Shown piece by piece: positions 8,701 through 37,315 of a DNA stretch of 64,000 nt (positions are counted from its first letter, which is position 1; every line of letters begins with the position of its first letter). Source of the stretch: Botryllus schlosseri (taxonomy: Eukaryota). The notes under the pieces are model-generated. The model was given only the letters and a program-made list of their open reading frames with translations. It was not told the origin of the DNA and did not search any database. Made by a program: the position numbers and the translations under genes. The DNA lies in contig CM119371.1 in NCBI GenBank assembly GCA_051294905.1, positions 38,752,001 to 38,816,000 of the forward strand, read 5' to 3'.

Positions 8701-10339
8701 ATTCCTTGGTATCCACAACATATACTACGTTCAAAATTGGTGCCCGATTAAAAAAACTATCACAAAAATAGCACTCAAATTATGTTGAATTGACGCATAT
8801 ATAGTTCGATTTTGAGAAGGTGTATATTCTCGTATTATTGAGATCGGATATAGTGTTTTCCTCGTACCTATATGCGACTACAAATAACATAATATCATTC
8901 GATATTACAATAAAGATAATTTGGCGTGTTTCCAACCATACCTATTTCACTTCACTTTATTACTGGGCTTGTGGGTTGATCGCGACTTCACCTAAATGCT
9001 ATTTCGACCAGACCATGCGTAGCTTTTTACTACATGTTTCGAATGCTGCGATACAACATATCGTAATCGAGTCGAATCGCATGAGTTCATACTAGTTGAG
9101 CTAGGCTAGATTAAGGATATGTAAGAAATTTAGTGTACCAGATTGCCGTTAATTTGCCTACATAAACCACAGTTTATTTCCAGGTGATAGGCACATCTAC
9201 GTTTCACCTACGCATCGATCTCCAGCGAGGGATATACTCAGACGGACGTGAAGCGCAATAAGCTGTCTCTTCCATTAATTCCTACTAATATTGTTATAAG
9301 TTACTAAAAGTTTTGGTAGTTTGATCCCGTTCATGTCAACCAGAAACCTTCGCACAGCGCTATGCACAGCCATGTGTCATAATAGCGATCGGCAGGCATT
9401 GATTTGCAAGATTCCCTCATTCCACCCTTTATCTCATATGCCAGCGCGTGTTTTCTTTTCTTACGAGACAAAGGAATTCGCAAATCTCAGTTCAGTTCAC
9501 TGTATGTATTGTATATGTCCGCGCGGCATCACGTCTGTTTCGAGGATTAGATTACTCTGATATGCGGCAATGGATTTGGCGTAGGAAAGGCATTTATTCA
9601 TATAAAGGTGGTAAGACTGTTGATATCCTTGAATGCTTTTTGAAGCAGTTTAGTTATGCGAAGTATTAGTATATGTTATCGTATATGTATTACAGTGAAT
9701 GCTACTTTCGCTTTTCGAGTGCATGGGCCTCTTAGATAGATAGGCGATTCTATGTGTGATATAGCAGAGGCTTTAAAATTTCAATGTGGCGAAAGCCTAC
9801 TTTTGAGCCGAAATCGGTTATGTGTCATACTTAAACGCTACTTTCGTGACATGAATAAGCATTAAGCAAGCTCGTCTTATCTGATCTCCTAAATTACAGC
9901 ATAGTACAATCCTGATGCTGCGTTGTTCATAGTCTATCATGGCCTGAAATTAGCACATTTGGCATCGCAGTTGGATGAAGTAGCCTCTGGGCTGTTCCAT
10001 TGATGTCTGGGACATACACTTGCAGGCCTCCGTAGGTCTAACTGTTTTACGTGTCTTGGTATGCAAGCCTCGTATCTTTTCGTGGAGCAGCTGTAGCGTG
10101 CCAGATCTGCTTTCTTGCACGTGGTTTGGTTGGTAGCTTTTGTTTGCCGGAAGCAGGTAGCAACATATTAAAATATCTGGCTAGCTTAGTAGCAAAGTTT
10201 TCGTGACTGCTCGGGCAGCAACATAAATATCTTTGACATCCTCTAGGCTGTTGTTCGCACCGTGATTGTTAACCGTTAGGCTTGATTGTTTGTTTGATGT
10301 TCATTGGTCATCATTTTACAACAGGCCGACACTATTTTA

Positions 10340-10549
10340 TATTCCGTATATTCCGTATATACCGATTTGTAGCACTGCCCATTTCTATGTGTTTTATAGG
10401 ACACCGCTTACGCTGGTCACGTGGCGAGGTGGAGCCTAGATAAACTCCGACACGTAGATCGGAATTCTGGAGTTGACCTCGGTCGGACTCGAACGCACAA
10501 CCCATTAGCGTTGCGGCTTTGAATTATACCACTGTGCTACCTCGCCACT
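10340..10549 (-). mobile_element. tRNA-derived SINE
   Basis: Minus-strand head gtggcgaggTAGCACAGTGGtat...gcGTTCGAGTCcg (Pol III A and B boxes). Body shared with copies at about 24040-24131, 56260-56445 and 56895-59622. Confidence 0.75.
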
Positions 10550-11169
10550 ATTGTTAATGTGGTATTTTGAGACCTATTATGTTATTCTGGAGCAAACAAT
10601 GCGAGTATCAATTCCAATGATTCTGGTGAGAGGTGACTGTTTCGACTACTGAAATTATACAATCCTTATCAATGAAACTCGAATTATTGATTGGCACTCC
10701 CAAAGCATTTTCAGAAAGTGCAATGAAATAGGTATGGTTAAAATACCAAATATTCTCAAGTGTGATGCCGTTAGGGGTCGCATAAAAGGTCCATATCCGA
10801 ACTTTGCGCATCATTCAAATAATGACATAAAGAGTGATACTCGAATCCGAATCGAATCACTGAAGCACTCGATTTTCTTCGTGTTTATGAGCAAGCAATG
10901 CAACTTTTCAAATCTTGTAAAATGGCAATGTGTTCGATGAAAGAATTGCATAGGAATAGCATATTTAGATTTCTATTGAAATGTTGAAGGTTTATTTCAA
11001 TCTCAATATTTTCGTTGCGAGGCAGATTGCTCTCCGGATTGTATGTGTATTTATCAGTTTTACTGTGACAGCAGAATATAATAATGAAATTTTCTCGAAT
11101 CACCGACAGCAATCCTTAACGATTATCGATTATTATCGACCACCCTACACCTATATTTGGTAAAGAGAA

Positions 11170-12195
11170 ATGATGTCGACTTTGCGGTCAAAAGTGACAA
11201 CCGCTCCTCCTCAGCCTCCCTCCCATGGCTTAACGCGTGCACAATTATCACTCGTCCCGAGGGCCAGGCAATGCGCCTGCACCGTATGCGGTACTCGTAA
11301 AGATTGCAAGTTGGATAAAGTGTACGCCCACCCGGTTCTGAAGGTCTTGATTTGCGAGATGTGCTATGAGTTTTATATCGCCGGGGAATTCACCAAGGAC
11401 AACGATGGCTACGACGGACAATGCCGGTGGTGCAGGAAAGACGGTAAACTAATTTGGTGCGATTCACCTGGGTGTACTCATGCCTTTTGTAAAGGTTGTC
11501 TGAGGCGCAATTTCCCGTACCATCAACGAAAGAACATTCTCGCCGCTAACCACTGGCTTTGTTTTTCGTGCGATGAATCGCAGCTTCCAAAGCGTATCAA
11601 GGAAAAATACGACAAATTGGCTCCGTTCCTAGCAGTGAAATGGAACTCCATGTTGAACGGCGATGTCTGTTTGGAGAGCAAAAAAGTACCAATTGTACGA
11701 AGTCCTAGTATACCGAGAAACTGTGAGACCGCTCAGAAATTGTTCGCCGATTACGCGGGTTTTGTTCGAAGCCTTATAAAATCTCCACCGTCTTCGGTTC
11801 GTGATGTCAAATCGATTGTAAGTCATCTGAAATGTGCCTCGCAAGAATTAGCTTCAATCCAAACCGAGTTTGGCGCCTGTCGCAAGGATGAAGGCCCTGA
11901 CGATGAGTCGTTTAAATCCGACTTATTGTCGAAGGATATCATATTGAGCATGCAGCCAAGAGTGTCTCTGATAAGACTGGAAGACTTGAAACAGATTGCG
12001 ACTTATTGCGCGTCTCAAGGTCACGGAAACGGCGCCGATTCTAAACAGTTTTCAGATTCGGAAGTAGATGTTTTTGCACGACGACGCCAGCCTGAGTTGA
12101 AGGCCAAGTTCACAAGCGCAGTGCGATTGAAATTCTGTTTTATATGCTTTGTTGTATGTTTTTGGATTCTGCTCTTCATTCCGCCATGTTACTAG
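11170..12195 (+). CDS. Stand-alone ATRX-type ADD-domain protein (ADD, helical segment, PxVxL, hydrophobic tail; no SNF2 helicase), copy 1
   Basis: Uninterrupted 341-aa ORF. CTVC...HPVLKVLICEMC...DGYDGQCRWC...GKLIWCD...CTHAFCKGCLRRN...WLCFSC matches the ATRX ADD (GATA-like plus PHD-like) signature at about 11272-11586. PRVSL at 11956-11970. Confidence 0.85.
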   Translation: MMSTLRSKVTTAPPQPPSHGLTRAQLSLVPRARQCACTVCGTRKDCKLDKVYAHPVLKVLICEMCYEFYIAGEFTKDNDGYDGQCRWCRKDGKLIWCDSPGCTHAFCKGCLRRNFPYHQRKNILAANHWLCFSCDESQLPKRIKEKYDKLAPFLAVKWNSMLNGDVCLESKKVPIVRSPSIPRNCETAQKLFADYAGFVRSLIKSPPSSVRDVKSIVSHLKCASQELASIQTEFGACRKDEGPDDESFKSDLLSKDIILSMQPRVSLIRLEDLKQIATYCASQGHGNGADSKQFSDSEVDVFARRRQPELKAKFTSAVRLKFCFICFVVCFWILLFIPPCY

Positions 12196-13013
12196 TGCCG
12201 AATCTAATGTTATGTGGTTTTCGATTATAAAGCCTAGCTCCTTTCCCGTTGCTTGGGTGCAAACTCTGAATTTATTCATAAATGAAGCAAGGGGAATTCG
12301 CGGCATGCTCATTGACATTGAATGGTGTTCTTTCTTCCACCGCTTTGACGCTTCTTGTTCGTACTGTTGTACATGGGATTGTTACACACTGTTAATCGAT
12401 TAGTGTAAAATGCCTGTAACAATTTCCATCATAACGTGTGGTGCAAATCGCGCAATTGTAAATTTGAGGTACTAAATTTTGCCAATATGCCTTTCCACCT
12501 TTCCGATTGTTGAAATTGAGTCTAATACAGCAATCCATATGGCGATATATCGTAGGATGTAATGGGTTGTATTCAAGTGTAACACCTGTTTTGAATTACA
12601 TGAGTTTGTATGGGGAAAATGAACTCGACACCTCACCCTGGGATATCGCTAAGAATTGGTGTATTGACTCGTGGTCACCCATTTAAAGGGTAAGCAAGAA
12701 GCTTCGGTACCCAATAGTGCTATTTACGAGACCTACACCCTACGATAGGGTGTTAAATCGTGTTTACAGTGCAGCAGTCTTGGTCAACTAGATAATTCTT
12801 ATCGTCCGATTAGACTGAATAAGAGCGATATATCGGTTATCTAATTTGTCGAATCTTTCGTTCCTCTCATTCTAGTTAGGATTCAATTTATGGAATGTTT
12901 CTGTGCTCTATTAATTATTATAATCGAATTTGTGGTTTTCCTTTAAATACCGCAAAACAGTACAGTGCGAAGCGAGCCAAGCTTGCTGTGTAGCAGGGCT
13001 CTTCAAAAATGAC

Positions 13014-13408
13014 TTTTTTCTTAAATCGTACTGGCTACTTGATAAAATTGTTAGGTAACCTAATTGAAGCATACACACCAAATTTGGTTCAATTCCAACC
13101 AGTAGCCGCATTGCTACAGAAGAACAGAGGTTCTATTCATTATATAAAAATAAATACCAAACAAATTTCTGTTCACCCCGTGGAAGTGTTAGGTTGTCTA
13201 CAGAAACGATATAGACAACTTAACACTTTCATGGGGTGAACGGAAAATTCTCAAATTGTTTGTTTTTCATTTTTATATAATAAATAGAAACTTTGTTCTC
13301 CTATAGAAATGCGGCTACTGGTTGGAATTGAGCCACATTTGGCGTGTAGGCTTAAATTAGGTAACCTAACAATTTGATCAAGTAGCCAGTACGATTTGAG
13401 AAAAAAAT
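13014..13408. repeat. Long palindrome / hairpin MITE
   Basis: Arms of about 190 bp are near-complementary (e.g. aaatcgtactggctacttgat / atcaagtagccagtacgattt) around a short loop at about 13201-13211. Confidence 0.85.
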
Positions 13409-14592
13409 GCTAATGTAATTTGGAAAGGCTGCGGTGTATTTCGTGTTGCGAACGCATGCAATTGTTACGTTGATATTTTTGTTCGTCTTGAAATCCACGT
13501 GCATAACGAGCGCACTGCTGTTCGTGTAATTTCTCGGCTGTGAATACCTGTTTCCTTCAATTTCCTCAGTTGAATGTGCCCTTCTGTAATTAAATTCACG
13601 TTTGATTTGCATGATCTATTTTTACAACTATAGAAAGCGACAGTGGCCGTCATGTTGAGAGCAATTTTCTTCGAATTGCATATCATCGCTCCGATTTAAG
13701 ACTAGGATTACTTGCCTTCCACTCACGCAAGCCTGTGAATATACACCAAAGTCAAGAGTGCACTGCACCCGAGTCATATAGTGGAATTTAGTCGTCAAAT
13801 ACCATACGGTAGCCGGGGTCCTATATCATCACATGTCGTGAACATATTGATATGAATTATCTTTCTAGCAAATGAACATATTGGTGCACTCATTATCAGT
13901 CTGTCCAACAGGAATCAAGTTTATTGCAGTATAGCAGGTTCAGTTCAAGAGAATCAATTAGATTCGCAATGCATGTAGCTCGGAATCTGGTGTCGCATCG
14001 TTATTCGACAAATATCGTTATATGTACATAATCCAACGTGGCGCATAGCGCAATTCTCTGTGTGAGCATTAAGGCAACCAGGCGACGGTGATACTTCGCG
14101 ATATTTCGGGAGTAGCCTACGCAACAACAACATGAATTAGATTACTGCAATGTAAGTAGGCCTACAATTCGAGAAAGCGCGCAAGTAATCAGCAATTAGT
14201 CTGGCGGGCACACACGTAATAGCTTCTGACGTCGCCTTGAGTTGGGCTCATTGCTACAGTTGCAACAACGCAGTTTGGGGCTACATTGAGTAACGATTCG
14301 GCGCAAGAGTGATCATCACGAAAATTGCATGTTTGCCTTTGCTAAATGTCCTCTTTTAGGAGGATTTGTTCACTTTTTAAACATTTCTAGTGAGATGCTC
14401 ACAGTTGCAACAAAACCTTTGGGCCAGACGCTGAATTTATTTCCTAGACACCATAGCCATGGGACATACTGAATTACTGCTTTTAAAAGGATGCCCTACA
14501 AGCCATGGCTTCTTGAATGTTACTGTAAAAATTGGCTTTTCGGCACGCGAGAATCTGTCCAAATTTTCTGGCACAAGTTCGAGCGTCTAGAC

Positions 14593-15407
14593 CAGGGGTG
14601 TCAAACATACGGCCCGCCAGGCGATTTCATCCGACCAGTGAAGCAATTCTGAGTGGATTGAAAAATGTTTGGATGGCCCAGTATATATGTAAAAAATGAT
14701 GAGATTTCTTAGTAGAAAATATACTTCAATTAAATAATCCTTCAGAACCGCAAATATCGAGCATGTTCATAGGCCACATTTTAATACCCGACTGGGATGT
14801 TGCAGTTTCCCTCTAGTTACCATTAGGGACAAGTCAGTGACATTGAAACCCAATTTCGAGAAAGAAAAATGCGCACAATCAGTTCAGAGCTTTATTGAAT
14901 ATGGACCAAAATTAGTTATTAGCAGAAGCGAAAACGCCAAGGCGGATCCATGTTACGCATGTTACATCGAGGTAGGTACACAAAAGTAGAATTGTATTAT
15001 CTGTGGTCACATTGCAGTATAACCCTGGAATCAAAAGGTACCTGGCCTCCAGAAAAACCCTAATCACGATTTAATAATAATAATTAAACTAATTCCAACG
15101 TTCGCGTTTACAGTTAAGTCTCCTGTATTTCCCGCAACACATACGCTGGGCCAACGCTAGATTCCGACATCGTTGTTAGCGCCTCCGTTTTCGAGTTCAC
15201 AACTGTATACTCGACCGGCCAATCATCGCATTTTTCGGATTTAATTGTTATTAAGGTGTTGCTCTATGATCCATGATATGATGTAATAGATATTATGCAT
15301 ATTGGCTTGATGATGACGCATTCAAATAAAAAACAATGACATGAGGTAGCATTTTGTAATCCGTCGACTACTCTGGCCCGCGACGCAATTTGAGTTTGAC
15401 GCCGCTG
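14593..15407 (+). mobile_element. hAT-type MITE (CAGGGGTGTCAAAC ends)
   Basis: TIRs caggggtgtcaaac / gtttgacgccgctg. TSD gtctagac/atctagac. Confidence 0.8.
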
Positions 15408-16733
15408 ATCTAGACGGCCGTATACAATTTCCATGATATTGCGTGTAAACAACTTCACGATCTCTTTAAAATGATCGTCCTTATAGACAAAAGTTATGGG
15501 AACCGCAAAGTATGGGCTGAATCCGGATTATGATTTGATTTTGGGTCGGCTTTTGCGACTTTTGCCTGCTACTATCAAGGAAATATAATCCATCATCACA
15601 CTCGAACGTAACAATTCTATTTCCATTAACTTGCGTTGATTTGTACACCATGTTTCGTTTCCTATGATCCAATCAATTGTGGCTGCAACTGCAAGTCTTC
15701 CAAGTTTGGAAGATAGCATTGAAGCCACAATCATCGTTGATAAATTAACCCTCAGCTCAACGAGGCGTAATCATTTCAGTGTGAATCGAATTTACGATTA
15801 ATCTTAGGTAAGCATGTCATATGACAAGAGAATAATAGTGCTACAAGTGCAAGTCATTTATTGATACAAAGGCGGTAAAGATACTAACATCCTTGAATGG
15901 TTTGTGAAGAAGTCTCGTTATGCGAAGTATTAGTATATTATATCATACATCATGTATGATACATGTAAAGTAAATTCAACTCTCGCGTTCCGAGTACATG
16001 TAGGCCTACTTGTGCATTGCACAATTGTGCACCATGGCTTAAATATATAGGTGGTTACGTTATGTGTGATCTAGAAGAGGATTTCAACTTCTACATGGTG
16101 TATATGCCTACTGCCTACTTTCAGCAGAAATCGATGTATCTGTAATACTCAAACCATAGTGATCTATATTTAAAGGCTACATTCATCACTTGAATAGGGT
16201 TATGTTCGCCTTATCGGATCGACAAAACGACAGCATATTACAATACTGCGTTGTTGATCATGGCCGGATATTTCCAAATCTAAGTAGCCTTTGAGCTCTT
16301 CAATGGATGTCTCAACCACAAATTTGTAGGCCTGCGTAGGCCTAACTGTTGTTAATGTCTTGGTATGCAAGCCTCGTATCCAAATCCGTGCGTCCAGCTC
16401 GATCTACCTTATTCCGCGGGGTTTGGTTGGTAGCTTTGTTTGTCAAAAGCAGGTAGCGAAGTTGCAATATCTGGCTAGCTTAATAGCAATGTTTTCCTGA
16501 CTGCTTGGGGAGGCAGACGTTCTCATGGCTGATTGTTCGCCGTCGTTGCTAGGGCTATCTCTTGAGACTAAATAAGTAGTGCTGGGCATAGTGATGTGAA
16601 TCTGAATCGACTATTAACTCTGATGATTCGAGTGAGACATGATTTTTTTCGCATCCTGAGATTATACGCGTCATGTCAGAAAGAGTTGATTTGATAACTA
16701 GAATTATTGTTTCGATACTGTTTTCCACTGTAG

Positions 16734-17578
16734 AGGAGGGCCAGGCAATGTGTCTGCGCCGTATACGGTGCAGGCACAGATTGCAAGTTGGACAAAGTTT
16801 TCGCCAACCCGGTTCTCAAGGTAATGATTTGCGAAACGTGCCATGAGTTTTATCACGCCGGGGAATTCACGAAGGATCACGATGGTTACGATGAGCAATG
16901 CCGTTTGTGCAGGAAAGGCGGCAAAATCATCATGTGCGACTCAACTAGGTGTACGTATTCCTTTTGCAAAGTTTGTATGATGCGTAATTTCACGTACCAT
17001 CAACGCAAAACCATTCTCGATGCTAATCCGTGGCATTGTTTTTCGTGCGATGAATCGCAGCTTCCGAAGCATATCAAGGAAAAATATGACAAATTGGCTC
17101 CATTCCTAGTAGTGGAATCGAAATCCGTGTTAAACAACGATGGCTCCGCTGAAATCACGGAAGTACCAAGTGTACCAAGTCCTAGTATAGCTTCCAAATG
17201 TGAAAGCGCTCAGAAATTGTTTGCGGAGTACGCGGATATTGTTCAAGGTTTTGTAACATCTACACCGTCTTTGGCTCGTGATAACGAATCGATTGTAAAT
17301 CATCTGAAATGGGCCTCGCAAGAATTAGCTTCAATCCAAACCCAGATATGCGTCTGTCTCGGCGCAAGGGTCATATCGATCTGACTAATTTTCGAACGAT
17401 ATAATATTAAGCTTGTATCCATGAGCGTCTGTGATAAGATTGGACGATTTGGCCTCAGCTTTCTCGGATTCCGACTCAGATGTGTTTGCGCGACTGGCGT
17501 GGTGCCATTGAAATTCCGTTTTATGTGGTTTTGTCGTATGTTTTCGGATTCTCGTCTTCATTCAACCATCTCACTAGT
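16734..17578 (+). pseudogene. ADD-domain gene copy 2, degenerate or truncated
   Basis: Open frame 16734-17384 (RRARQCVCAVYG...HPVLKVMICETC...DGYDEQCRLC...WHCFSC...). Zn ligand changed from CTVC to CAVY. No ATG, and an in-frame TAG at 16731. Frameshift near 17350, then SD*FSNDIILSLYP*ASVIRLDDL, so the PxVxL motif is destroyed. Confidence 0.75.
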
Positions 17579-17700
17579 GTCTGATCACCGCTGTTGATTT
17601 TAGTTCAATGTAATGACCAGTGCAACACCGATCGTTGCTCGCCAGATGTGGAATTTTCTGTAATTTTAATAATTCATTTTTGGTAGTTCACTGAACCGAA

Positions 17701-19148
17701 CAAAGTTGGATCAATTACATTATTTCAGTTCAATTACAATTACAATTACTTTCATGCATGTTTCAATTACATTACAATTACAATTACTCCATGCTAAAAA
17801 TATCAAATTACAATTACAATTACAATTACTCCTTGCATGCTTCAATTACATTACAATTACAATTACAATTGCTGCTGATGAACATGTAATTGAATAATCA
17901 TAAATTCAACCGTGTTCCTTGACAACCGTAGCGTCGTAATAAACAACAATTCAAGTATTCATGTTTCATTCATGATACGCAAATACCCGTTTATTAATAA
18001 AAAGAAAAACATTTTCGAACTATTCCAGTATGCAGTATGTCGTTGAAAAAAGTATTATAATATATGCACGTGTTGGATTTGCGTATATAGTATATAATTA
18101 AAGAAATGATATTATTTTTATCGAGGGACGTAGGAATTAGGATGAGGAGTAAAAACAAAGCCGTGCTTTGTCAGATAAGACGTTATATAATATCCAGTGG
18201 TATGGTTAGTTAGCCAGACGAAGTAACGATGCAGCATCGTGATCTGAAATCGTGTTGTAGATTGCCAACCCACGGATAGATTCGCAAGATGTGAGTCACG
18301 GATGAATGCACCGACAAACGTACTGCAGAGCCGGCTAAAAGCAGCAAACTTTGTAGTCTTAGAGCTGGCGATCCACGCGTCCAAATTTGATGCATCTGGT
18401 CTTTATCGTAAGCTATTGATGCACTGATTCCGAAAATACAAATTAAAATCTCGTCAGGGCAATGTAACTGCTCCAAAATAGCCGTTTAAGGCTGACTGTT
18501 CTGAAAAGTGAGAGCGTCGCAGCAGCATGACCAGAACAATGACCAATTACGCCCAGCGATTGTTCAGAACAATGCCGATTCCCAGACTTTCACGACTATT
18601 TTGGGATGGTACCATTGCCTGGAAATATACTTTTATTGCGGAATCAGTGCGACACCAGCTTTCGATTAGGAACATACATATCAAATTTCGACGCTTGGAT
18701 CGCCAGCTATGGGACTATCAATTCTGCTGCTTTTAGCCGGCTCAGCAGTTTGCTTCTCGGCGTATTCAATCGTGAGTCACGTGTTGCGAATCCATCCGTT
18801 GCTTAGTAATCTAATAATTGTATACAATGGCAGTCGAGGCCAACATAGCGGTAAAAATAAAAAACTTCGCCCGCAAGGGCGCAGTCAAGGGCTTCCGCGA
18901 ATGGATCCACCAAATTCCTTGTCGACATTTAAAGAGAATGCATTATAAGTCAATTATTTTATGTTGTGCTTGTCAGGTCTCAATAGCAATTTAATGTAAT
19001 TGAAATTGTAATTGAGCAAAATTGTTGTCAAATTACAATTACAATTACACAAAATAAAAATGCTTCAATTACAATTAAATTACAATTACATTGAAAAATG
19101 TAATAATTACATTCAGCTCAATTTCAAATTACAATTGATCCAACTCTG
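17701..19148. mobile_element. hAT-type non-autonomous element with CAATTA subterminal arrays
   Basis: TIRs caaagttggatcaatt / aattgatccaactctg. TSD gaaccgaa/gaaccgga. (caatta)n blocks at both ends. Internal inverted repeat at about 18270-18432 / 18638-18800. Confidence 0.8.
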
Positions 19149-19699
19149 GAACCGGAAATGCTGCTTTCCACCTTGGTGTAGAGTGTAAATGATGCAAACA
19201 GTACGTTCCGTCGTTCAGGCACTAGGTGATTTGACATCCTCCAATAGTGTGAATCCGATAAATACACCCATTTCTCACCATTATATTAACAATGCCCCAC
19301 TTTTGCGCTTATGCAGTCGTACTGTAGATACGTTTCATTGTTGTAGATTCTGTTTTCGTTTCCTTTTCCGTGACACGAAGGCTTGCGATTGCCTGCATAG
19401 TTTTTGTTACACTGATATTGTTTTCAGGCATTTGTCACGTTTCGTCCTGATGAATACCTCATTTCGTTATACTTGGACACTGCGATGTACTTAGTTGTCA
19501 AAAAATTAATTTTTACTTACTCGGCGTGATCTATTTTTATCAAATTGGGAAGTGTGGTGGTCATGTTAGGAAGAACGTTGTTGTAACTGCGACCTGTCGG
19601 TTGAAATGGATAACCCGTGACCTAATATCCAAATTTAAATCTAGTTGTGGTATTGACGAAATCATGGGATATTGAGCAGGACAATTTTTGACACCAAGT

Positions 19700-20015
19700 T
19701 CTCTCTATGTTCCCCTGGATTAGGAATAGGTTAGAGAACAGGTCGTTGGATACTTTTGTCCTTGATGTTTTTGCGGCATATACGCAGACTCACGATATAC
19801 GTACACACGAACTGTGCATACTGCATATACATACCACATACCGCCGGACAGGGAAGGTGCAGAAATAGCCCAAGTAGCCTTCTAAGTCTTTCCCCACCCG
19901 CCCGTCCATGCTAACCCGGTTATGCTGAGCGCCAAGCCAGGAAGTCAGTGATAACAGTGCTACTGATCAGGTCTTTGGTCTGACCCAGCCGGGCTCCACC
20001 ATTACGCTATCTCGT
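19700..20015 (-). mobile_element. SINE, second family (head partly deleted)
   Basis: Minus-strand A-box-like gagatagcgtaatgg at the 5' end. Body ctgagcgccaagccagga...gtctttggtctgaccc. A related segment lies in the opposite orientation at about 50130-50290. Confidence 0.5.
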
Positions 20016-20914
20016 GTTGTATGAAAAGTGTTTGGTATCTCGTTGTTTAACTCCCAGAGTTAAATCAAACGCGCGTATTTGTATAGTTGTGGAGAAAGCC
20101 GTTTAAAGGATAAATTGCGCTTTAAATATGGTGTGGTCTCAAATTAATGACACAAAGCAAGTGCTAAAAAAGATAGGCAGCAGCTATTTTCTTCAGAAAG
20201 CCGCCGTATTCGAACTGTAGCTAAAAGATGTTACCGAAATATACGATCCCACTCTAGCTGCAGTTATGTTTCTATGTGAAATCAAGACCACTCGTCATCA
20301 CGCCTAGTCCCGTGACCCTTTACGAATGGGTCAATAAGTACTACTAACATTTATGGATAGCTTGATCGCTGTCATGTTAAATTGGCATACAAAAGCAGCC
20401 TACTTGATGCGATATTATCTTTCTTAAAGTACATTCTGAGGTTTGATTTTTCCACCCACAACCACCTTAACCTAAAATAATCCTAATTGCGTGATTACAA
20501 TAGTACACACAGAGTATGAATTACACTTTGTTGAAGGGAAAATTCGGCTGTGATGCAGTAAATAAGCACCGAAGTAACGCTCCGGCGGATATTTCGGGAG
20601 CTTAGCCGACAAGTTGACGTTTTTTAATTTTTTTTTTATTAGTCAACCAACTGATTATGTGAAAAAAATGTATTTTGGGAACTATGAGCGAGAAAGTTGA
20701 CCTTTTCTTTAGTCAACCGACAACGGAGTAGGAAAAATTTACCATATTTTCAAGATTTTCCACCGGTATTCTAAGTTTGGAAAAGTGTCCTCCTTTCCCG
20801 ATTCCAAAATATGGTTATTGGTTACCCTAGGCTTACACTATACAGCGCCAATTTGCGTCATACAAGGTAAGGACAGGCAAGCAATGGTTTGCAAGATTAT
20901 TTTACGCCCTACGG

Positions 20915-22308
20915 CAGTGGTTCCCAACCTTTTTCCACCCACGTACCATTTATAGGTTTCATACAGTGCTCGCGTACCACCTACATAAGTTACGCGCACC
21001 GAAGGCGAATTTCCACCATCTATGACGTAATAATGACGTATTTGACTTTTGCGAGGTGTAACAACAAATTCTATCACACCAGGGGTGGCTAACCTTTTAG
21101 CCATTCACAGCTGCATTTCGACCACTCATGTTGCCCACGGCCGCATTCCAGGGCATAATAGTCGTAATGGACGAGCTGGACGCCAAAAAGCCAGATCAAG
21201 GTGTATATGGCCATTTCCGGTGAACTGCGGACTAATCTATTTAATGATATAGGCTTAGTCTACTATACGCACCGAAATTGCGAGTGGTCACTGGTAATGG
21301 CGAGGGACTGCTCAGAGCCGCGCGAAGCTCGAAACTTTTTCCAGATCCACGAATGAATTTTGTCATTGACATTAGTAGTTTTACATATTACTATCAAACA
21401 TTGATCCTTTCTCAGCCAACGTGATCAGATTCACCGGTATTAAGTTGATGCAGGGGGCGTTTTCGAAAATTTAGGGCCAGTTATAAATTATGATGCATCT
21501 TCGGGCGTAGTCATTATTTTATTGCATGCTGTTATTTCTTGACCTCCCGTCGGGATTGTCGGTATAGTGAGGAGCGTTCACGATTTCGAGTTGGTATATC
21601 TTTACGATAGGCACATCATTTTCCTCTGCTGCTGTTTGTATCTGTATTGTTGGGCTCTGATTGCAAAGGACGCTATACTGTATTAAAATCGAAAATTGAA
21701 GTCACATTACCAAGATTAATTAAAAGCTTTCAAGAAATCGGGAGTTGATTCGTAAATTCAAATTGCATTTAGACGGCCGCACAAATTTCCCTCTACGGCC
21801 GCAGGTTGGCCACCCCTGCGGTAGGCATTATCAGCCAGGGTTGATGGGATGCATGGAAATTTTTTTTCACCACCAGTCCCAAGACGAACAACATAATGAA
21901 ATAACAACAAAAGTCAATTTGTTTTATGCGATGGCTGCATTTGTTTATTTTCCTCTAGCTGGTCGATTCGTGGCATACGTTTGCTCACAGCGCATCGAAA
22001 GGCATGCAGCTTGGGCGCAACAAGTGGGTTTTGTTTCTTCGAATTTAAAGTCATCCGGGATGGAAATCCTTGCTAGCACTCCGACGTAGAAGGGAAAATT
22101 AGGAGATGGGGAATATCGCGAGAAGCTAGCGTCGAGTACGATGATGCCATGCTAAGCCAGAAATTTATTGGAGAACAATCTTCTCAAAATCAACCCCACC
22201 TGAAAATAACTACCTTCGGTCGAAAAAAAAATAGAATCTACTCGCGTACCACCTGGAAGACCTTCGCGTACCACTAGTGGTACGCGTACCACAGGTTGGG
22301 AACCACTG
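20915..22308. mobile_element. hAT-type element with a nested MITE (21080-21818)
   Basis: TIRs cagtggttcccaacct / aggttgggaaccactg. TSD ccctacgg/ccttacgg. Inner ends caggggtggctaacct / aggttggccacccctg have no clear TSD. Confidence 0.8.
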
Positions 22309-22439
22309 CCTTACGGGATATCTTCACAATGAAACAGCAGTCAGCTCAGCATCCATATAAGACAACTGTTGTTTATTTTCTCTCATTGTGGTTTCCAAGT
22401 AGAGGTTTTACGAAGTTTTACAAAATGTTCAGTAGAGAT

Positions 22440-22595
22440 GTCAGCGTCCCATCGTGCTTTGTTTCGGGGATTAGGTCTGATAATGATAATTCTGAAAATG
22501 CCACAGGAGAACTGTATAGTTCGAAACGAGCCAAGCTTACCGAACAGACATTTGCAATTCTCATTCTGATGAGATTGAACTCTGATTTGATATGA
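22440..22595 (+). pseudogene. Possible hAT transposase extreme C-terminal remnant
   Basis: SSKRAKLTEQTFAILILMRLNSDLI* resembles the R-x-x-L...F...L..N end of the hAT dimerisation domain. Confidence 0.4.
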
Positions 22596-24734
22596 ACTGA
22601 ACTTCGTTCGATGTTCACGTTTTCGCAAGTTCAGTAAAAACACTGTGTAGCTATAATTCCTATTGTAATCGATTTTGTAGAAGCTGAAGATTTTCTAGTG
22701 GTCCATGTCCATGGCGGGATTAGATAATCCTTCAAATCAGTGGCAATGGATTTCAGGTCAGGCAAGTTATATTGATTCACGGAAAAGGTAGAGATCTTTT
22801 AAGGTTCGATGAAAAACTGTATTAATGCGAAATATACGATATATGATACGGTACAGACCTTTGCTGGCTAGCTTAGTGATTTGAAATAATATTTGAATAT
22901 ACTCTTGAAGATACCAAACTTCAATACACAATTCTATTTGGAAATGATCCCGAATGTTGTCGGCCGACAGCCGTCGGAGTCAATCGTCAGCAACTAGTGT
23001 AGAGAATTGGCAAGAACATTATACCGGTTTATCAAATATCCAATTTCGTACAACTTACTGATGCTTACATGACCAGAGTATTGATGTATTGCAGTAGCGT
23101 TGTACGATGTTTATTGCGCCGTGCGTCAGTATAAACAATAACAATCACTAGCCGAAGGGACAAACGATGATAAATGGGATTTGACGCCTTCCATTTCGAC
23201 ACCCGCTGAGAAACACTCCCGGGGTGACGAACAAGTGCGCGCTGCGCATTCTCCTTCATTGTAACCGCCGCAACCCGTATTAATGAGGCGTGTTCAGTAC
23301 ATTGTGTACAATAACTCCCAAGCAATTGTAGTGATAGGCTGAGTAATCGAAACACGAAGTTGGACAGCTTGGTATTGTGTGTGCAATGTGCATGAGTAAA
23401 TTGGATTTCATCCCAGCACGTAGTAGTTGCTGCAATAACATTAGACGTGAACGAGAAAGTCTGGCAATGGAGCCCAGTACGCCGTTGTAATTAACAAAGA
23501 ATAGCCGCGGCTGAAGGCATATTATTGATTAGGCAGTAGCTCGCCAAAATAGTACTTACGGCAGTGGTTCTGTAGTCACAGGGGCTCGCTGAGGGCCACG
23601 ACAAACTTCTGACTCATACAACAGTAGTCACACTGATTTGCACTTTGCAGTGAATATTCATTATTTTCTTTTGCGTAACAATCACGCTTCAATGACTTCA
23701 TTCTTGTAACATTGTTGTTGACGCACAGTTTAATTTGTTTGCCAGTATGATATGGTGATGCATCGGATGTGTAGTGTAAACGTAGTATATTTATGTTTTA
23801 GTCACTAGGTATAAATATGGGATTCGGCCAAGGGTTGCAGATGGGTGTAAGTTATAGGTAAGGGTTCGCCAGAGCTTAGCGAAGGCTAAGAACTACTGAT
23901 GTATGATCGCTTGTTTGTTATGCAATCTTTAGCTACATGCGTACTCGCGAATTGTCACCATGCTAGCAATGAATTGTTCTTTGTGGTATTCATGGTGATT
24001 TTCGACTGCGATGGTCTTTTACACCAGGCCGTTTTCCTTTATAATGATTCCGTAGCAGCCGACTTGTAGCACTGTCCACACCTAGGCTTTTTAAGGCGAG
24101 GATCAGATGGCAAGGAGGAGGCTAGATAAACACCGGGACGAAGTTAGCCATCAAACTCTAGCCATCAAAAATAAATACCAGAACTACTGTGTAGAATACC
24201 GCAGGTACCGGATGTATCACCAGGATCAAGTTTCCGACGATGCCGCGGGGCAGCCATCGGCCACATACGATGTTTCGACGTAGGTTACGGTGAAATACTC
24301 ATTGAATTGTCTTCAAATCAATAAAGCGTACAAATACCCGACTGATTTTATCGCATCACGTCGTTTGTGAAACAACTAATAAAGAATATAAGCTCGCTAG
24401 CACCTCAACACTGTTAACTCAACACAGCTATCTCGCGAATGACTATCTCCATCATGAAATTTTCACAGCTGCAAGGTATCGCTCTGCTGGAAACGAAATT
24501 TCGCAAAATGTAGTTTTAGCACACAAAATCTGGATTTGACAAAACAAATATTGGTCCGACACGCTAAACGCCGTACCTCAAATGTCTCTAAACTATATGA
24601 TACGCTCAACTAAACAGTCACTAAACTTGGAATCGAATCCAACTTCTCCAAACTAGAGACTGTGGCGATGAATGGCGTTCACAGATGTATAGTTTGCAGG
24701 CTAGTCTGACACCACACAAATTGTCAACTATCTC

Positions 24735-25236
24735 CAAGTGGCGCATTCAAATTTATCACGAAAAATATTCGAAATTTGCCAAACTATAACCTGTGTCAAA
24801 GAATGGCTTTCAAATACCTATAGCTTACAGTTACGCCTAGCAGCACACCAATTTTCATAAATATCCAGTTGGCGCAAGGTGTCCAACGGGCCCGATACGC
24901 TCGGCTGCACAGCCATTGAAATTCAAATTTATTCACGAAAAATATTCGAAAATTTTAAACTATAACCTGTGTCAAGGAATGGTTTTCAAATACGTATAGC
25001 CTATAGTTAGGCCTAGCATCACACCAATTTTTAGCGATATCCAAGTGGCGCAAGGTGTCCAACGGGCCCGATACGCTCGGCTGCACAGTAATAAAAACTC
25101 AAATTTATTCACGAAAAATATTCGAAAATTTTAAACTATAACCTGTGTCAAGGAATGGCTTTCAAATACGTATAGCCTATAGTTAAGCCTAGCATCACAC
25201 CGATTTTTAGCGATATCCAATTGACGCAAGGTGTCA
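24735..25236 (+). repeat. 176-bp tandem repeat, left arm (about 3 units)
   Basis: Recurring ggcgcaaggtgtccaacgggcccgatacgctcggctgcacag...ttcacgaaaaatattcgaaa...tataacctgtgtcaaggaatgg. Confidence 0.9.
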
Positions 25237-25824
25237 CGGGGGTCATAGAATGCCAATGGTTGCCACACTGACCTGATTAGATAGTTATATACCCTAAGCA
25301 GCGCAAGGTACAACCTTTTGATATAATATTATTATCCATGACAGTTTCATAGATTGTTACGTCCGTAGGATTAACAAGTCACAGTTCCGATTCGCAAGTC
25401 CTTGTTTGATTTTAACGTTTGACTCGACTCAACTCGAGTCATTTTTATTAAATCACCCAGTCAATCAGAAATCGAGTAATTTTACGAGAAGGTCGCACCA
25501 AACCAAATTACAATTATCAGTCACGAAACAGCAACGGATCATGTTCTATCGTCATTAACTAAAAATGTGATATAATGGCTGATGTCATCCCGCATGTGGT
25601 AGCTTTTAAAAGCGATGTGATAGTGAAGTTTGTGATTTGTCAATTCCAGTGATTTTTATAGTAGTTTTAAATTGAACTTTTAGCTCTTTTATTTAAAAAA
25701 AGATATGTGACACTTGAATAAATTGTTAAATACTTGAAATTACAAAATGCCGTTGCGGGCCGCACAAAATTCTCTCGCGAGCTGCATCCAGTCCGCTGGT
25801 CGCGTGTTTGAGACGTCTGCTGTA

Positions 25825-26800
25825 GTCTATATGTATTTGAAAGCGATTCCTTGACACAGGTATTAGCTTGAAAATTTTCGAATATTTTTCGTGAATAAAT
25901 TTGAATTTTTATCACTGAGCAGTCGAGCGTATCGGGCCCGTTGGACACCTTGCGCCACTTGGATATCGCTAAAAATTGGTGTGATGCTAGGCTTAACTAT
26001 AGGCTATACGTATTTGAAAGCCATTCCTTGACACAGGTTATAGTTTAAAATTTTCGAATATTTTTCGTGAATAAATTTGAGTTTTTATTACTGTGCAGCC
26101 GAGCGTATCGGGCCCGTTGGACACCTTGCGCCACTTGGATATCTCTGAAAATTTGTGTGCTGTTAGGCTTAACTATAGGCTATACGTATTTGAAAGCCAT
26201 TCCTTGACACAGGTTATAGTTTAAAATTTTCGAATATTTTTCGTGAATAAATTTGAGTTTTTATTACTGTGCAGCCGAGCGTATCGGGCCCGTTGGACAC
26301 CTTGCGCCACTTGGATATCGCTAAAAATTGGTGTGATGCTAGGCTTAACTATAGGCTATACGTATTTGAAAACCATTCCTTGACACAGGTTATAGTTTAA
26401 AATTTTCGAATATTTTTCGTGAATAAATTTGAATTTCAATGACTGTGCAGCCGAGCGTATCGGGCCCGTTGGACACCTTGCGCCACTTGGATATCTCTGA
26501 AAATTTGTGTGCTGTTAGGCTTAACTATAGGCTATACGTATTTGAAAGCCATTCCTTGACACAGGTTATAGTTTGAAAAATTTCGAATATTTTTCATGAA
26601 TAAATTTGAATTTTTATTACTGTGCAGTCCAGCGTATCGGGTCCGTTGGACACCTTGCGCCACTTGGATATCGCTGAAAATTGGTGTGCTCTTACGTTTA
26701 ACTATAGGCTATACGTATTCGAAAGCCATTCCTTGACACAGGTTATAGTTTGGCAAATTTCGAATATTTTTCGTGATAAATTTGAATGCGCCACTTGGAG
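25825..26800 (-). repeat. 176-bp tandem repeat, right arm (about 5.5 units, inverted relative to left)
   Basis: cgtatcggg(c/t)ccgttggacacc recurs at 25928, 26104, 26280, 26456 and 26633. Confidence 0.9.
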
Positions 26801-27334
26801 ATAGTTGACAATTTGTGTGGTGTCAGACTAGCCTGCAAACTATACATCTGTGAACGCCATTCATCGCCACAGTCTCTAGTTTGGAGAAGTTGGATAGTAT
26901 TGTACGTATTATTGATTGGTATTGGTATTGGTATTTGTACGCTTTATTGATTTGAAGACAATTCAATGAGTATTTCACCGTAACCTACGTCGAAACATCG
27001 TATGTGGCCGATGGCTGCCCCGCGGCATGGTCGGAAACTTGATCCTGGTGATACATCCGGTACCTGCGGTATTCTACACAGTAGTTCTGATATTTATTTT
27101 TGATGGCTAGAATTTGATGGCTAACTTCCTCCCGGTCAGGCAGCAAACAAGATTTGAACTTAAATATGGAAACACTGACTTGTAATTTGAATTGTTACGG
27201 TCTGACTTGCTATATTGGCTTTCTTTTGAACTTGGATTACTCAGGCGACGTAGGTAGGTTACGTAATCACGGCACATAAATAATCAAAACTTTTGGCGGG
27301 CTGCATTTGACTCGTGGGCCAATGCCCAGGTCTG

Positions 27335-27433
27335 GTCTATACCTTGCTTATCTGTATATAACATTTGACCTAATTGCATTTTTGTAATGTATATCATTGA
27401 TTTGCACGGCTGACGAATAAAGATTCTCTCTCT
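27335..27433 (+). mobile_element. Short LINE 3'-end fragment
   Basis: taccttgc...catttttgta...acgaataaagattctctctct matches the 3' end of the LINE at 39835-39925. Confidence 0.7.
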
Positions 27434-27467
27434 TCAGAATCGCCTTTGAATCGTAATATAGACCTAC

Positions 27468-28112
27468 TTGAATCAGCAGCACCGGTTGATGAGGACGCTT
27501 CTAAAAATCACGGTCATGGACCATCACAACGAAATCAGTGCGAATTTTTTAACGCTTCTGGACGATATCAAATTGACCATGCAGCCGCGAGTGTCCTTGA
27601 TTAGATTGACTGCGGGAGACTTGCCAACGATCCCAACTTATTGCGCGTTTCGATATGATGGAGCCATCTCGAATTCAAATTCGTCTTCAGATTGCGATGA
27701 AGATATTGTCGGACATCGTAAGCCTGGCGCCAAAAGACCATTGCTCTTCGATTTAGACAGTGACAGTGACACAGCATTTTCACCGGAAGGCGAGGAATAT
27801 AGAGTTCTGATTGATGGCGTGGTTGATCCTTCAAAAAGGATAGCAATATCAGAAATAATGGAGATGACAGAACGTGCCCAATCTGCCCATGCTGATACTC
27901 TCGCTGAGAGCGAGCAGCTGCTGGCAAATGACGTCATCTCTTGCGGCGACACAAGCGAGAAATTACTCACACCAGCTTGCGAACAGCGTACCAATGATTG
28001 CGTTAGATACGAGCTGTTCATCTTGTACTTTGTGGTGCAATTGAAATTACGTTTTATTTGTGTCGTTTGCGTTGCCGTCTTCATTTCGTATCTCTACTGT
28101 GGTGGTACTTAA
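27468..28112 (+). CDS. Third paralog of the ADD-gene family, C-terminal part only (no ADD visible); exon or pseudogene
   Basis: DDIKLTMQPRVSLIRL...IPTYCA...SDCDEDIVGHRKPG...VQLKLRFICVVC aligns with copy 1 KDIILSMQPRVSLIRL...IATYCA...SDSEVDVFARRRQP...VRLKFCFICFVVC. The true start is unclear. Confidence 0.55.
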   Translation: MNQQHRLMRTLLKITVMDHHNEISANFLTLLDDIKLTMQPRVSLIRLTAGDLPTIPTYCAFRYDGAISNSNSSSDCDEDIVGHRKPGAKRPLLFDLDSDSDTAFSPEGEEYRVLIDGVVDPSKRIAISEIMEMTERAQSAHADTLAESEQLLANDVISCGDTSEKLLTPACEQRTNDCVRYELFILYFVVQLKLRFICVVCVAVFISYLYCGGT

Positions 28113-36700: not shown

Positions 36701-37315
36701 CGAGCTAGAATTGAAAATCGGTTATCGTTATACGATTTTGCACACTCTGGATGCGTAAGAAGGTACTGAGCAATTTCCGACTTGCATGCCGTGGTATGGT
36801 TATAGTCTCGCTAGAAAGGGTTGCTTGTCAGCGATTGGCTGTCTGAAATAGCATTGACGCCAGGTTCTCTAATATGCTTGGACGCATGTTGGTTAATTCT
36901 TTGTCGCAAACGAAGGGGTGTACGATCCAATTATTAAAAAATTAATATCATGATTAGGAAGGAGAATTTAGATTAAATGACGCTACACAGGATTTTAGTA
37001 GATTGACAGATGCACAACGTGGTGCTTTGCTTTGGGGCTTCTTAGAAAATTCGTCTTGAAAAAAAATCGTCCGACAAAAAAATGCATGATCGAAATTCCT
37101 TACCTCCAGTCATCTTTCCGATTTGAAGATAATCGGTCGGGAGCATTCGGCGGCAGAGTTTCTCATTCGAATTGATGTAAGGAATCGCGTTCTCAACATT
37201 GGATTTCTGTTGTCACGGAGGTCGTGGTGGTGAAATGGGCGCCGGTTTCGCGCGCTAGTGATATGAAAGAGTTGCCAGCACCAAAGTTGTACAAACCACC
37301 AATCTAGTTTCAACT

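What the first reader, a model, noticed from the sequence alone, without database searches (positions are those of the whole stretch)
11170..12195. Helicase-less mini-ATRX: ADD histone reader, PxVxL HP1-type motif and hydrophobic C-terminal tail in one 341-aa ORF
Seen: a complete ATRX-type ADD domain, then a helical segment (AQKLFADYAGFVRSL...LKCASQELASIQTEF), then QPRVSL, a basic patch and the tail FCFICFVVCFWILLFIPPCY*. No SNF2/helicase exons are recognisable anywhere downstream in the window. Known: the ATRX ADD reads H3K9me3/H3K4me0, P/LxVxL motifs bind the HP1 chromoshadow domain, and Drosophila has a stand-alone ADD protein (dADD1) from a split ATRX. Inference: a lineage-specific, duplicated ATRX derivative that keeps the heterochromatin-targeting modules and drops the motor. 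It could act as an adaptor, a competitor of ATRX or, if the tail is real, a tail-anchored tether between heterochromatin and the nuclear membrane.
Basis: partly seen in the sequence, partly recalled or inferred. Interest (0 to 1): 0.8.

Follow-up and report, generated by a model that had tools for sequence, protein, structure and literature searches.

The report
Motor-less ATRX duplicate, apparently silent
This is a real, intact, shortened duplicate of the animal's ATRX chromatin gene that keeps the histone-reading and HP1-docking parts but not the motor, much like the fly protein dADD1; no RNA from it was seen and its neighbouring copies are decayed, so it may be a recently retired gene.

Summary
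Window 11170-12195 (+) is an intact 341-codon frame with a complete ATRX-type ADD domain, a predicted two-helix hairpin, a P-R-V-S-L motif, a basic patch and a 20-residue hydrophobic end. The window has no SNF2 sequence, and none lies anywhere on this contig.

It is a truncated paralog of the genome's full-length ATRX, which lies on another contig as one 2002-codon frame. Three blocks are collinear (ADD, helix, PxVxL block); the linkers and the motor are lost. The motif is invariant between the paralogs, and a controlled complex prediction docks it on an HP1 chromoshadow dimer in the textbook mode.

The locus holds three copies: this intact one, a decayed twin at 16734-17760 (zinc-ligand Cys to Tyr, frameshift, stops), and a C-terminal fragment at 27462-28112 that shares the hydrophobic end in frame.

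An intact frame is very unlikely under neutral decay (P about 0.002-0.008), so selection kept it for most of its history. But four RNA-seq runs gave zero reads over the whole ORF, and its ADD changed as fast as the dead twin's.

Verdict: a dADD1/ATRXt-like motor-less ATRX derivative. I put about 55-60% on recently silenced and about 40% on a live gene with restricted expression. The membrane-tether idea stays a long shot.

The parts
11170..12195 (+). Copy 1: intact 341-codon ORF (mini-ATRX), stop at 12193-12195
   Evidence: 100% self match in the genome search
11269..11655 (+). ADD domain (residues ~34-162: GATA-like finger, PHD-like finger, C-terminal helix 141-162)
   Evidence: Pfam PF17981 E 4.1e-13; human ATRX ADD 3ql9 E 5.4e-23; pLDDT above 90 over residues ~50-150
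11716..11877 (+). Two-helix hairpin (residues 183-236; KLFADYAGFVRSLI ... SIVSHLKCASQELASIQTEF), homologous to canonical ATRX residues ~383-464
   Evidence: BLASTP second HSP E 4e-05; AF2 helices 183-204 and 210-236; also aligns to sea-urchin ATRX P0100
11923..11979 (+). PxVxL block (residues 252-270, LLSKDIILSMQPRVSLIRL); core P263-R-V-S-L267 at 11956-11970
   Evidence: L..DI.L..M.P.V.L.RL is invariant in copy 1, copy 3 and canonical ATRX; the docking interface centres on V265
12076..12192 (+). Basic patch (residues ~303-321) and hydrophobic C-terminal tail (residues 322-341)
   Evidence: Kyte-Doolittle 19-aa mean 2.6; tail DNA homologous in all three copies and in frame in copies 1 and 3; low-confidence helix 301-336
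16734..17760 (+). Copy 2: decayed tandem twin. The ADD plus helix part is open for 216 codons with no ATG and a TAG directly upstream. First CxxC is CAVYG (Cys to Tyr). Frameshift after ELASIQT, stops in the PxVxL part, 1-bp insertion in the tail.
   Evidence: 79% nt identity over 730 bp; alignment; tblastn with stops
27462..28112 (+). Copy 3: C-terminal fragment, 216-codon open frame (FLTLLDDIKLTMQPRVSLIRL, a long acidic/serine stretch, hydrophobic end LRFICVVCVAVFISYLYCGGT); no ADD found upstream
10283..10550 (.). Dispersed ~250-bp repeat about 620 bp upstream of the ATG; it accounts for part of the extra DNA that copy 1 has upstream compared with copy 2
   Evidence: 40 scored matches elsewhere in the genome out of 2440 first-look candidates

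Best explanation
The ORF is a truncated paralog of the genome's own full-length ATRX. A partial copy of the ATRX 5' part landed on another chromosome-scale contig, lost the linkers between three conserved blocks, and picked up a short hydrophobic end from sequence with no counterpart in ATRX. It was then copied locally, giving three copies in the window. The protein it encodes would work like Drosophila dADD1 or the human ATRXt isoform. The ADD zinc-finger module docks on the histone H3 tail. The P-R-V-S-L motif inserts between the two C-terminal strands of an HP1 chromoshadow dimer. With no SNF2 motor it can only bridge, recruit or compete, not remodel. Shown: homology, architecture, intact frame, past purifying selection. 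Inferred: H3 binding, HP1 binding, adaptor role. Present status: the family is decaying (copy 2 dead, copy 3 a fragment), and copy 1, though intact, gave no RNA in any of the four runs read. I judge it somewhat more likely (about 55-60%) a recently silenced gene than a live one.
For: Origin: the genome search gave 4 matches: self, copy 2, copy 3, and C13 inside a 2002-codon frame that holds ADD plus SNF2. Three blocks are collinear: ADD 40% identity over 230 aa, E 2e-45; helix block E 4e-05; PxVxL block. In a tree of 58 ADD rows the two mini copies are sisters (100/96) and join the canonical C13 and P0002 rows, apart from the other 53 rows (branch 0.81, support 81/99). Mechanism: ADD fold confident; Y203-equivalent aromatic (F68), H189-equivalent (H54) and 4 of 6 acidic-loop residues kept (alignment, with residue roles from PMC12900699 passages). 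HP1 docking: score 0.66 against a best control of 0.01; that mark was reached by 51 of 78 solved complexes and 2 of 108 mismatched pairs; runs agree in at least 73% of contacts; partner pLDDT at least 53. The interface runs over partner residues 15 and 17-33 and is centred on the motif's Val, against chromoshadow residues 168 and 171-177 of both copies. Solved HP1 chromoshadow-PxVxL complexes exist (recalled), so the pass may reflect likeness. Past selection: P(frame intact) is 0.008 at 0.10 and 0.002 at 0.15 neutral substitutions per site. There are 0 indels in 611 bp of ADD plus helix, against 4 in 229 bp and 5 in 103 bp further 3'. ADD dN/dS is 0.24. Silence and decay: depth 0 in all three bins from 10802 to 12754 in 4 of 4 RNA runs. 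Copy 1-private and copy 2-private ADD replacements are 11 and 11. Post-ADD dN/dS is 0.83. Copy 2's lesions are.
Against: Against 'silenced': an intact 341-codon frame with start codon and all zinc ligands is what a live gene looks like. Only 6-13% of each of four bulk runs from two studies was read. Germline- or stage-restricted genes would be missed, and 17 further RNA runs were not examined. Against the mechanism: the residue equivalent to human E218 is Gly and that of E252 is Gln (the canonical ATRX of this genome also lacks E252). The HP1 used was a database stand-in, not this genome's own protein, whose chromoshadow domain is split by an intron. The tool's calibration did not cover peptides or disordered chains.
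Confidence: 0.55

Rival explanations
1. It is a live gene with restricted expression (for example germline, embryo or a rare cell type), making a nuclear ADD plus HP1-binding adaptor or a competitor of full-length ATRX. The hydrophobic end is incidental.
For: Intact frame, very unlikely under neutral decay. All zinc ligands and the PxVxL core are kept. No indels in the ADD plus helix part. ADD dN/dS 0.24. The HP1 docking test passed with controls. Only four subsampled bulk runs were read.
Against: Zero reads in 4 of 4 runs over 1.95 kb. ADD replacement count equal to the dead twin, 11 against 11, including the E218-equivalent. The exact protein is not in the 15-billion-sequence collection. No hit above 51% identity among 714 hits.
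Confidence: 0.3
2. It is a live gene whose hydrophobic end is a true tail anchor. The protein sits in the inner nuclear membrane or ER and tethers H3-tail/HP1-marked chromatin to the envelope, working like CEC-4, LBR or PRR14.
For: The last 20 residues are strongly hydrophobic (Kyte-Doolittle 2.6) and preceded by a basic patch. The tail DNA is shared by all three copies and stays in frame in copies 1 and 3 despite a 6-bp, a 9-bp and a net 279-bp length difference. Tail dN/dS between copies 1 and 3 is 0.27 over 23 codons. The tail is not a dispersed repeat.
Against: No expression seen. AF2 confidence for the tail helix is low, 52-58. A Phe/Cys/Ile/Val-rich peptide is what T-rich non-coding DNA gives when read through. 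Canonical ATRX has no counterpart to the tail. Twenty-three codons is a very small sample. Copy 3 lacks an ADD, so the shared frame may simply be inherited.
Confidence: 0.1
3. It is the first exon(s) of an ordinary ATRX gene whose SNF2 exons lie beyond the window, or a gene-model artefact.
For: None found. Only the a-priori expectation that ADD and SNF2 belong together.
Against: The full-length ATRX with its own ADD lies on contig C13. None of the 9 SNF2 matches in the genome is on contig C1. The frame ends in a stop with homologous stops or tails in the sister copies. No spliced (GT..AG) joint was seen anywhere in 9500-29000.
Confidence: 0.02

Closest known systems
Drosophila dADD1 (CG8290)
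   Same: A stand-alone protein with an ATRX-type ADD and a PxVxL motif and no helicase. dADD1's ADD binds H3K9me2/3 and the protein is a strong HP1a interactor (passages of PMC4083088; review PMC12607251).
   Different: In flies ATRX is split: XNP has no ADD. Here a full-length ATRX with its own ADD persists, so this is a duplicate, not a split. Some dADD1 isoforms carry MADF domains; Pfam finds none here. dADD1 has no hydrophobic end and is expressed and genetically validated; this ORF gave no RNA.
Human ATRXt (truncated ATRX isoform)
   Same: [quoted passage not shown]
   Different: It is an isoform of the single ATRX gene, not a separate locus. It keeps the long linker between the ADD and the motif (human PxVxL at 581-594), whereas here the motif sits at residues 263-267.
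Canonical ATRX of the same genome (contig C13, one 2002-codon frame)
   Same: ADD (55% identity over 115 residues), helix block and PxVxL block in the same order, including the lineage-typical CDSPGC insertion in the PHD finger.
   Different: About 1990 aa with acidic/serine linkers and the SNF2 ATPase. No hydrophobic end. The E218-equivalent is kept.
Short 'ATRX' proteins annotated in sea urchin (913-1104 aa), Halyomorpha (481-488 aa) and Helobdella (376 aa)
   Same: ADD followed by a helical region. The sea-urchin protein P0100 aligns to mini residues 30-239 (29% identity, E 5e-20).
   Different: Distant: they fall beyond the 0.81 branch in the ADD tree where included, so they are probably independent derivatives. 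I did not scan them for helicase domains; 'helicase-less' is judged from their length only.
Perinuclear heterochromatin anchors (C. elegans CEC-4; vertebrate LBR, PRR14)
   Same: Relevant only to the novel reading: a methyl-histone or HP1 binder fixed at the nuclear envelope. CEC-4 as an H3K9me anchor comes from the search listing and abstracts; LBR and PRR14 are recalled.
   Different: Unrelated folds (chromodomain, Tudor). Their membrane or lamina association is established, whereas here it is untested.

Membership tests
ADD domain (ATRX-DNMT3-DNMT3L), ATRX subtype | Significant match to the ADD_ATRX profile and to solved ATRX ADD structures, better than to DNMT3 ADDs | tested here: met
   PF17981 E 4.1e-13, above cut-off. 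ATRX 3ql9 E 5.4e-23, against DNMT3L 1.1e-07 and DNMT3B 2.5e-05.
ADD domain (ATRX-DNMT3-DNMT3L), ATRX subtype | Twelve zinc-ligand cysteines of the GATA-like and PHD-like fingers | tested here: met
   C37, C40, C62, C65, C85, C88, C97, C102, C107, C110, C131, C134. Eleven are invariant and C40 nearly invariant in 32 sequences. Copy 2 has lost the C40 equivalent.
H3K4me0/K9me3-reading ATRX ADD | K9me3 pocket aromatic (human Y203), H189, acidic loop D207/D208/D212/D214/D217/E218, E252 | tested here: inconclusive
   F68, H54, G72, E73, D77, D79, D82, G83, Q119. The aromatic and His are kept, 4 of 6 acidic residues are kept, and the E218 and E252 equivalents are lost. Mapping is by my count on the alignment; residue roles are from PMC12900699 passages.
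ATRX proper (SNF2-family remodeler) | SNF2 ATPase/helicase domain in the same protein | tested here: not met
   No SNF2 hit in the window or on the contig (0 of 9 matches). The ORF ends at a stop.
PxVxL-type HP1 chromoshadow ligand | P-x-V-x-L core in a disordered stretch | tested here: met
   P263-R-V-S-L267. pLDDT below 50 over 247-268. The core is invariant in copy 1, copy 3 and canonical ATRX.
PxVxL-type HP1 chromoshadow ligand | Binds across the chromoshadow dimer | tested here: inconclusive
   The model supports binding but does not show it: score 0.66, best control 0.01; the mark was reached by 51 of 78 solved and 2 of 108 mismatched pairs; at least 73% contact agreement; partner pLDDT at least 53. 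This is a textbook pair, so the pass may come from likeness. The HP1 was a stand-in (P0160).
dADD1-type split ATRX | The genome's SNF2 ATRX lacks an ADD, so ADD and motor are divided between two genes | tested here: not met
   The C13 ATRX carries both ADD and SNF2 in one frame.
Tail-anchored membrane protein | Single hydrophobic segment of about 20 residues at the extreme C-terminus, with no other transmembrane segment or signal peptide | tested here: inconclusive
   Residues 322-341, Kyte-Doolittle 2.6, the only such window. Only a hydropathy scale was used, not a dedicated predictor. Insertion cannot be tested with these tools.
Expressed gene | Transcripts covering the ORF | tested here: not met
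   Depth 0 over 10802-12754 in 4 of 4 runs, with 6-13% of each run read and no positive control.

The most novel reading that the evidence does not exclude
The hydrophobic end is a genuine tail anchor, and the gene is expressed in a stage or cell type not sampled. ATRX parts would then have been rebuilt into a membrane-bound reader: an ADD histone-tail module plus an HP1-docking motif fixed to the inner nuclear membrane, tethering heterochromatin to the envelope. It would be a convergent counterpart of CEC-4 or LBR built from a remodeler's targeting domain.
Probability: 0.1. Interest if true: 0.8.

Novelty: new member of a known kind. Interest (0 to 1): 0.3.

Why it matters
Motor-less ATRX derivatives that keep the ADD and the HP1 motif are known from flies (dADD1, by gene split) and humans (ATRXt, by isoform). 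This locus shows a third route to the same architecture: partial duplication beside an intact full-length ATRX, in an invertebrate outside the insects. Selection pruned the linkers and kept exactly three blocks. That marks those blocks, including a little-studied two-helix hairpin between the ADD and the HP1 motif, as the functional core of the ATRX N-terminus. If the copy is alive, it would be a natural separation-of-function allele for ATRX targeting. If it is dead, it is an ordinary example of the birth and death of a truncated duplicate.

Tried and rejected
1. Near-length homolog search: none of 777 candidates scored at E<=0.001. The tool needs shared 5-residue words, so this only excludes close relatives of similar length.
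2. Exact look-up: P0001, the copy-3 ORF and part of the canonical ATRX are not in the 15-billion collection, 3 of 3 absent. This is uninformative about expression.
3. Sequencing-run search: no RNA holder listed.
4. ESM Atlas search with residues 150-341: no usable hit.
5. Earlier-findings look-ups by place, sequence and words: nothing relevant.
6. Third ADD upstream of copy 3: none, even at tblastn E<=50.
7. Copy 2's ADD exon spliced to copy 3's exon as one gene: acceptor-like AGs sit at both frame starts, but there are no reads and no GT..AG joint in 9500-29000. Copy 2 also has its own decayed C-terminal part. Rejected.
8. Tail as part of a transposon: only the self match was found in the genome. 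Rejected as far as that DNA search can see.
9. Retrocopy origin: cannot be judged, because the parent coding sequence is a single frame without introns. No poly(A) tract was seen after the copies. A 3'-truncated copy favours a DNA-level partial duplication.
10. Using this genome's own HP1: its chromoshadow domain is split over two exons, so I used a database HP1 (P0160) whose C-terminus closely matches that exon.
11. Pfam scan of 11 other long frames of the window: 0 families.

Full report
OBSERVATION. Window 11170-12195 (+) is an uninterrupted 341-codon frame. It starts at an ATG two codons after an in-frame stop and ends in TAG.
- ADD domain: it matches Pfam ADD_ATRX (E 4.1e-13, 49.3 bits, cut-off 25.7). 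Its best solved relative is the human ATRX ADD (3ql9_A, E 5.4e-23, residues 36-138), well ahead of DNMT3L (1.1e-07) and DNMT3B (2.5e-05).
- Zinc ligands: in a 32-sequence alignment eleven ligand cysteines are invariant and the twelfth (C40) is nearly so.
- Predicted fold (AlphaFold2 on that alignment): a confident ADD (block pLDDT 94-98 over residues ~50-150); two helices at 183-204 and 210-236 (71-80); a disordered stretch around the QPRVSL motif (below 50 over 247-268); and a low-confidence terminal helix at 301-336 (52-58).
- Tail: the last 20 residues have a 19-residue Kyte-Doolittle mean of 2.6.
- No SNF2: tblastn of the genome's full ATRX against the window gave two hits at E<=1e-3, both ADD.

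WHAT IT IS DERIVED FROM. The window lies on contig C1 of a 495-Mb assembly of about 40% G+C. A six-frame search of that assembly with the ORF gave four matches: itself, two more in the window, and one on contig C13 inside a 2002-codon open frame. That frame encodes a full ATRX, with the ADD at the N-terminus, long acidic/serine linkers and the SNF2 ATPase.

The mini-protein is collinear with it in three blocks:
- the ADD (40% identity over 230 residues, E 2e-45);
- a helix block (mini 163-231 against canonical 383-464, E 4e-05);
- the motif block L..DI.L..M.P.V.L.RL (canonical ~559-580), which is invariant in copy 1, copy 3 and the canonical protein.

About 240 and 95 linker residues of the canonical protein are missing between the blocks. 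None of the nine genome matches to the ATRX helicase region is on contig C1, so this is not the 5' end of an ordinary ATRX.

An exhaustive HMMER search of 1.84 billion representative proteins gave 714 hits at E<=0.001. The 150 listed all match through the ADD, and none exceeds 51% identity. Named top hits include a Nematostella predicted protein and short 'ATRX' proteins of sea urchin, a bug and a leech.

For the ADD tree I took 62 rows. Four (P0032, P0034, P0047, P0059) were dropped because their match did not span the domain, leaving 58. The two window copies are sisters (100/96). They join the canonical C13 row and P0002 in an unresolved group, separated from the other 53 rows by a branch of 0.81. 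The duplication is therefore lineage-restricted but not young.

THE LOCUS HOLDS THREE COPIES.
- Copy 2 (16734-17760) is 79% identical over 730 bp, and a further 220 bp upstream also matches. It has no ATG and a TAG directly upstream. It also has a Cys-to-Tyr change in the first CxxC, a Trp-to-Leu change in CRWC, a 14-bp deletion after ELASIQT, stops through the motif region and a 1-bp insertion in the tail. It is a pseudogene.
- Copy 3 (27462-28112) is a 216-codon open frame. It holds only the motif block, a much longer acidic stretch and a homologous hydrophobic end. No ADD lies upstream of it, even at tblastn E<=50.

SELECTION.
- Copy 1 against copy 2 (Nei-Gojobori, 202 codons): dN/dS is 0.42 overall, 0.24 in the ADD and 0.83 after it.
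- Indels: the 611-bp ADD plus helix part has none, against 4 in the next 229 aligned bp and 5 in 103 bp of 3' flank.
- Neutral simulation: starting from the ORF, the frame stays intact with P = 0.008 at 0.10 and P = 0.002 at 0.15 substitutions per site. Those values are half of the observed coding (0.21) or flank (0.30) distance. Selection therefore held the frame open for most of the time since the copies split.
- Evidence the other way: polarising ADD replacements with the canonical protein and P0002 gives 11 private to copy 1, 11 private to the dead copy 2 and 9 ambiguous. Copy 1's private changes include Gly at the position of human E218.

EXPRESSION. I laid four bulk RNA-seq runs of the same species label on 9500-29000. 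They come from two studies, with 1.1-1.9 billion letters read from each, or 6-13% of a run. Depth was 0 in all three bins covering 10802-12754 and in both bins covering 16010-17311, in all four runs and both orientations.

The runs do contain this organism: 75-390 reads per run matched at 99% or better. However, 93-99% of the laid reads run on into unlike sequence, which means they are repeat-derived. No GT..AG joint was reported anywhere in the stretch.

Caveats: there was no positive control, because only one call is allowed. The runs were subsampled and their tissues are unknown. The tool also drops human-like reads, which cannot explain zero depth over 1.95 kb that includes non-conserved flanks.

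MECHANISM.
(a) ADD. My count on the alignment, anchored on residues named in PMC12900699 (passages), gives these equivalents:
- Y203 to F68, H189 to H54;
- acidic loop D207/D208/D212/D214/D217/E218 to G72/E73/D77/D79/D82/G83, so 4 of 6 stay acidic (the canonical C13 protein keeps 5 of 6);
- E252 to Q119.
H3-tail binding is plausible but possibly weakened. This step is inferred.

(b) HP1. The review PMC12607251 (passages) places the human ATRX HP1-binding PxVxL at residues 581-594. It states that ATRXt and dAdd1 both consist of the ADD plus this motif.

This genome's own HP1 chromoshadow domain is split by an intron. I therefore used a database HP1, P0160, whose C-terminus closely matches that exon.

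A controlled complex prediction of two chromoshadow copies with mini residues 241-290 supports binding but does not show it:
- score 0.66 against a best control of 0.01;
- the mark was reached by 51 of 78 solved complexes and 2 of 108 mismatched pairs;
- runs agree in at least 73% of contacts, and partner pLDDT is at least 53.

The tightest contacts put V265 against residues 168 and 171-174 of both copies. Complexes of this kind have been solved (recalled), and the calibration did not cover peptides, so the pass shows likeness to a true ligand rather than binding by this copy.

(c) With no motor, the protein could only bridge, recruit or compete. This is inference by analogy with dADD1, which binds H3K9me2/3 and HP1a (PMC4083088 passages).

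THE TAIL. The tail DNA is homologous in all three copies. It is read in the same frame in copies 1 and 3 despite 6-bp, 9-bp and net 279-bp length differences. Tail dN/dS between copies 1 and 3 is 0.27, but over only 23 codons. The tail is not a dispersed repeat, and canonical ATRX has nothing like it.

This is a hint that the hydrophobic end was once a selected part of the protein. A Phe/Cys/Ile/Val-rich peptide is also what read-through into T-rich DNA produces, and all copies inherit it from one ancestor.

VERDICT. The identity is firm: a truncated ATRX paralog with the dADD1/ATRXt architecture. I weighed the intact frame (strongly for a live gene) against zero RNA in four runs, a replacement rate equal to the dead twin and a decaying family. 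On that balance I put about 55-60% on a recently silenced gene, about 30% on a live nuclear adaptor with restricted expression, about 10% on a live tail-anchored tether and about 2% on anything else. It is a new member of a known kind and of modest interest unless expression is found.

Noticed in passing
G000 contig C13:12227444-12233452 (L005 5444..10000 plus L006 1..1452): The canonical ATRX of this genome (ADD, linkers, SNF2, C-terminal region) is readable as one uninterrupted 2002-codon frame, so its coding sequence appears to be intron-free. A tandem internal repeat (…SPRRAEIEDTPKKSRSPIDGNGNVEPFLT… occurs twice) lies just before its PxVxL block.
   Followed up: partly
window 37262-39670 (+): An 802-codon open frame with a reverse-transcriptase domain (RVT_1, E 4e-35). 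It looks like a LINE-type retrotransposon ORF2 and appears intact.
   Followed up: no
window 60707-61498 (+): A 263-codon open frame matching phospholipid scramblase almost end to end (PF03803, E 1.2e-51, profile 13-220 of 221). It looks like a single-exon scramblase gene or a large exon.
   Followed up: no
window 19754-19783: A 30-bp stretch is hit by many RNA reads in all four runs (34-281 loose-end reads per run). The reads continue upstream into unlike sequence and downstream into adapter-like letters, so this is probably a fragment of an abundant RNA encoded elsewhere rather than local transcription.
   Followed up: no
window 13014-13406: A self-inverted repeat (83% over 401 bp, reverse complement of itself) with low RNA depth of repeat type. 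It looks like a MITE or a hairpin element between copy 1 and copy 2.
   Followed up: no
G000 contig C15:18526516-18528285 (-): A second ATRX-like SNF2 region (42% identity to the ATRX helicase part over 552 residues) inside a 1197-codon open frame. It is possibly the ARIP4/RAD54L2-type relative (that name is recalled, not tested).
   Followed up: no
G000 contig C2:1164640-1166119 (-): The only chromoshadow-domain matches in the genome are two exons about 1.3 kb apart. Their C-terminal exon (…[30 protein letters not shown]…) is close to vertebrate HP1, which suggests a single HP1-type gene, as far as this first-look search can tell.
   Followed up: partly
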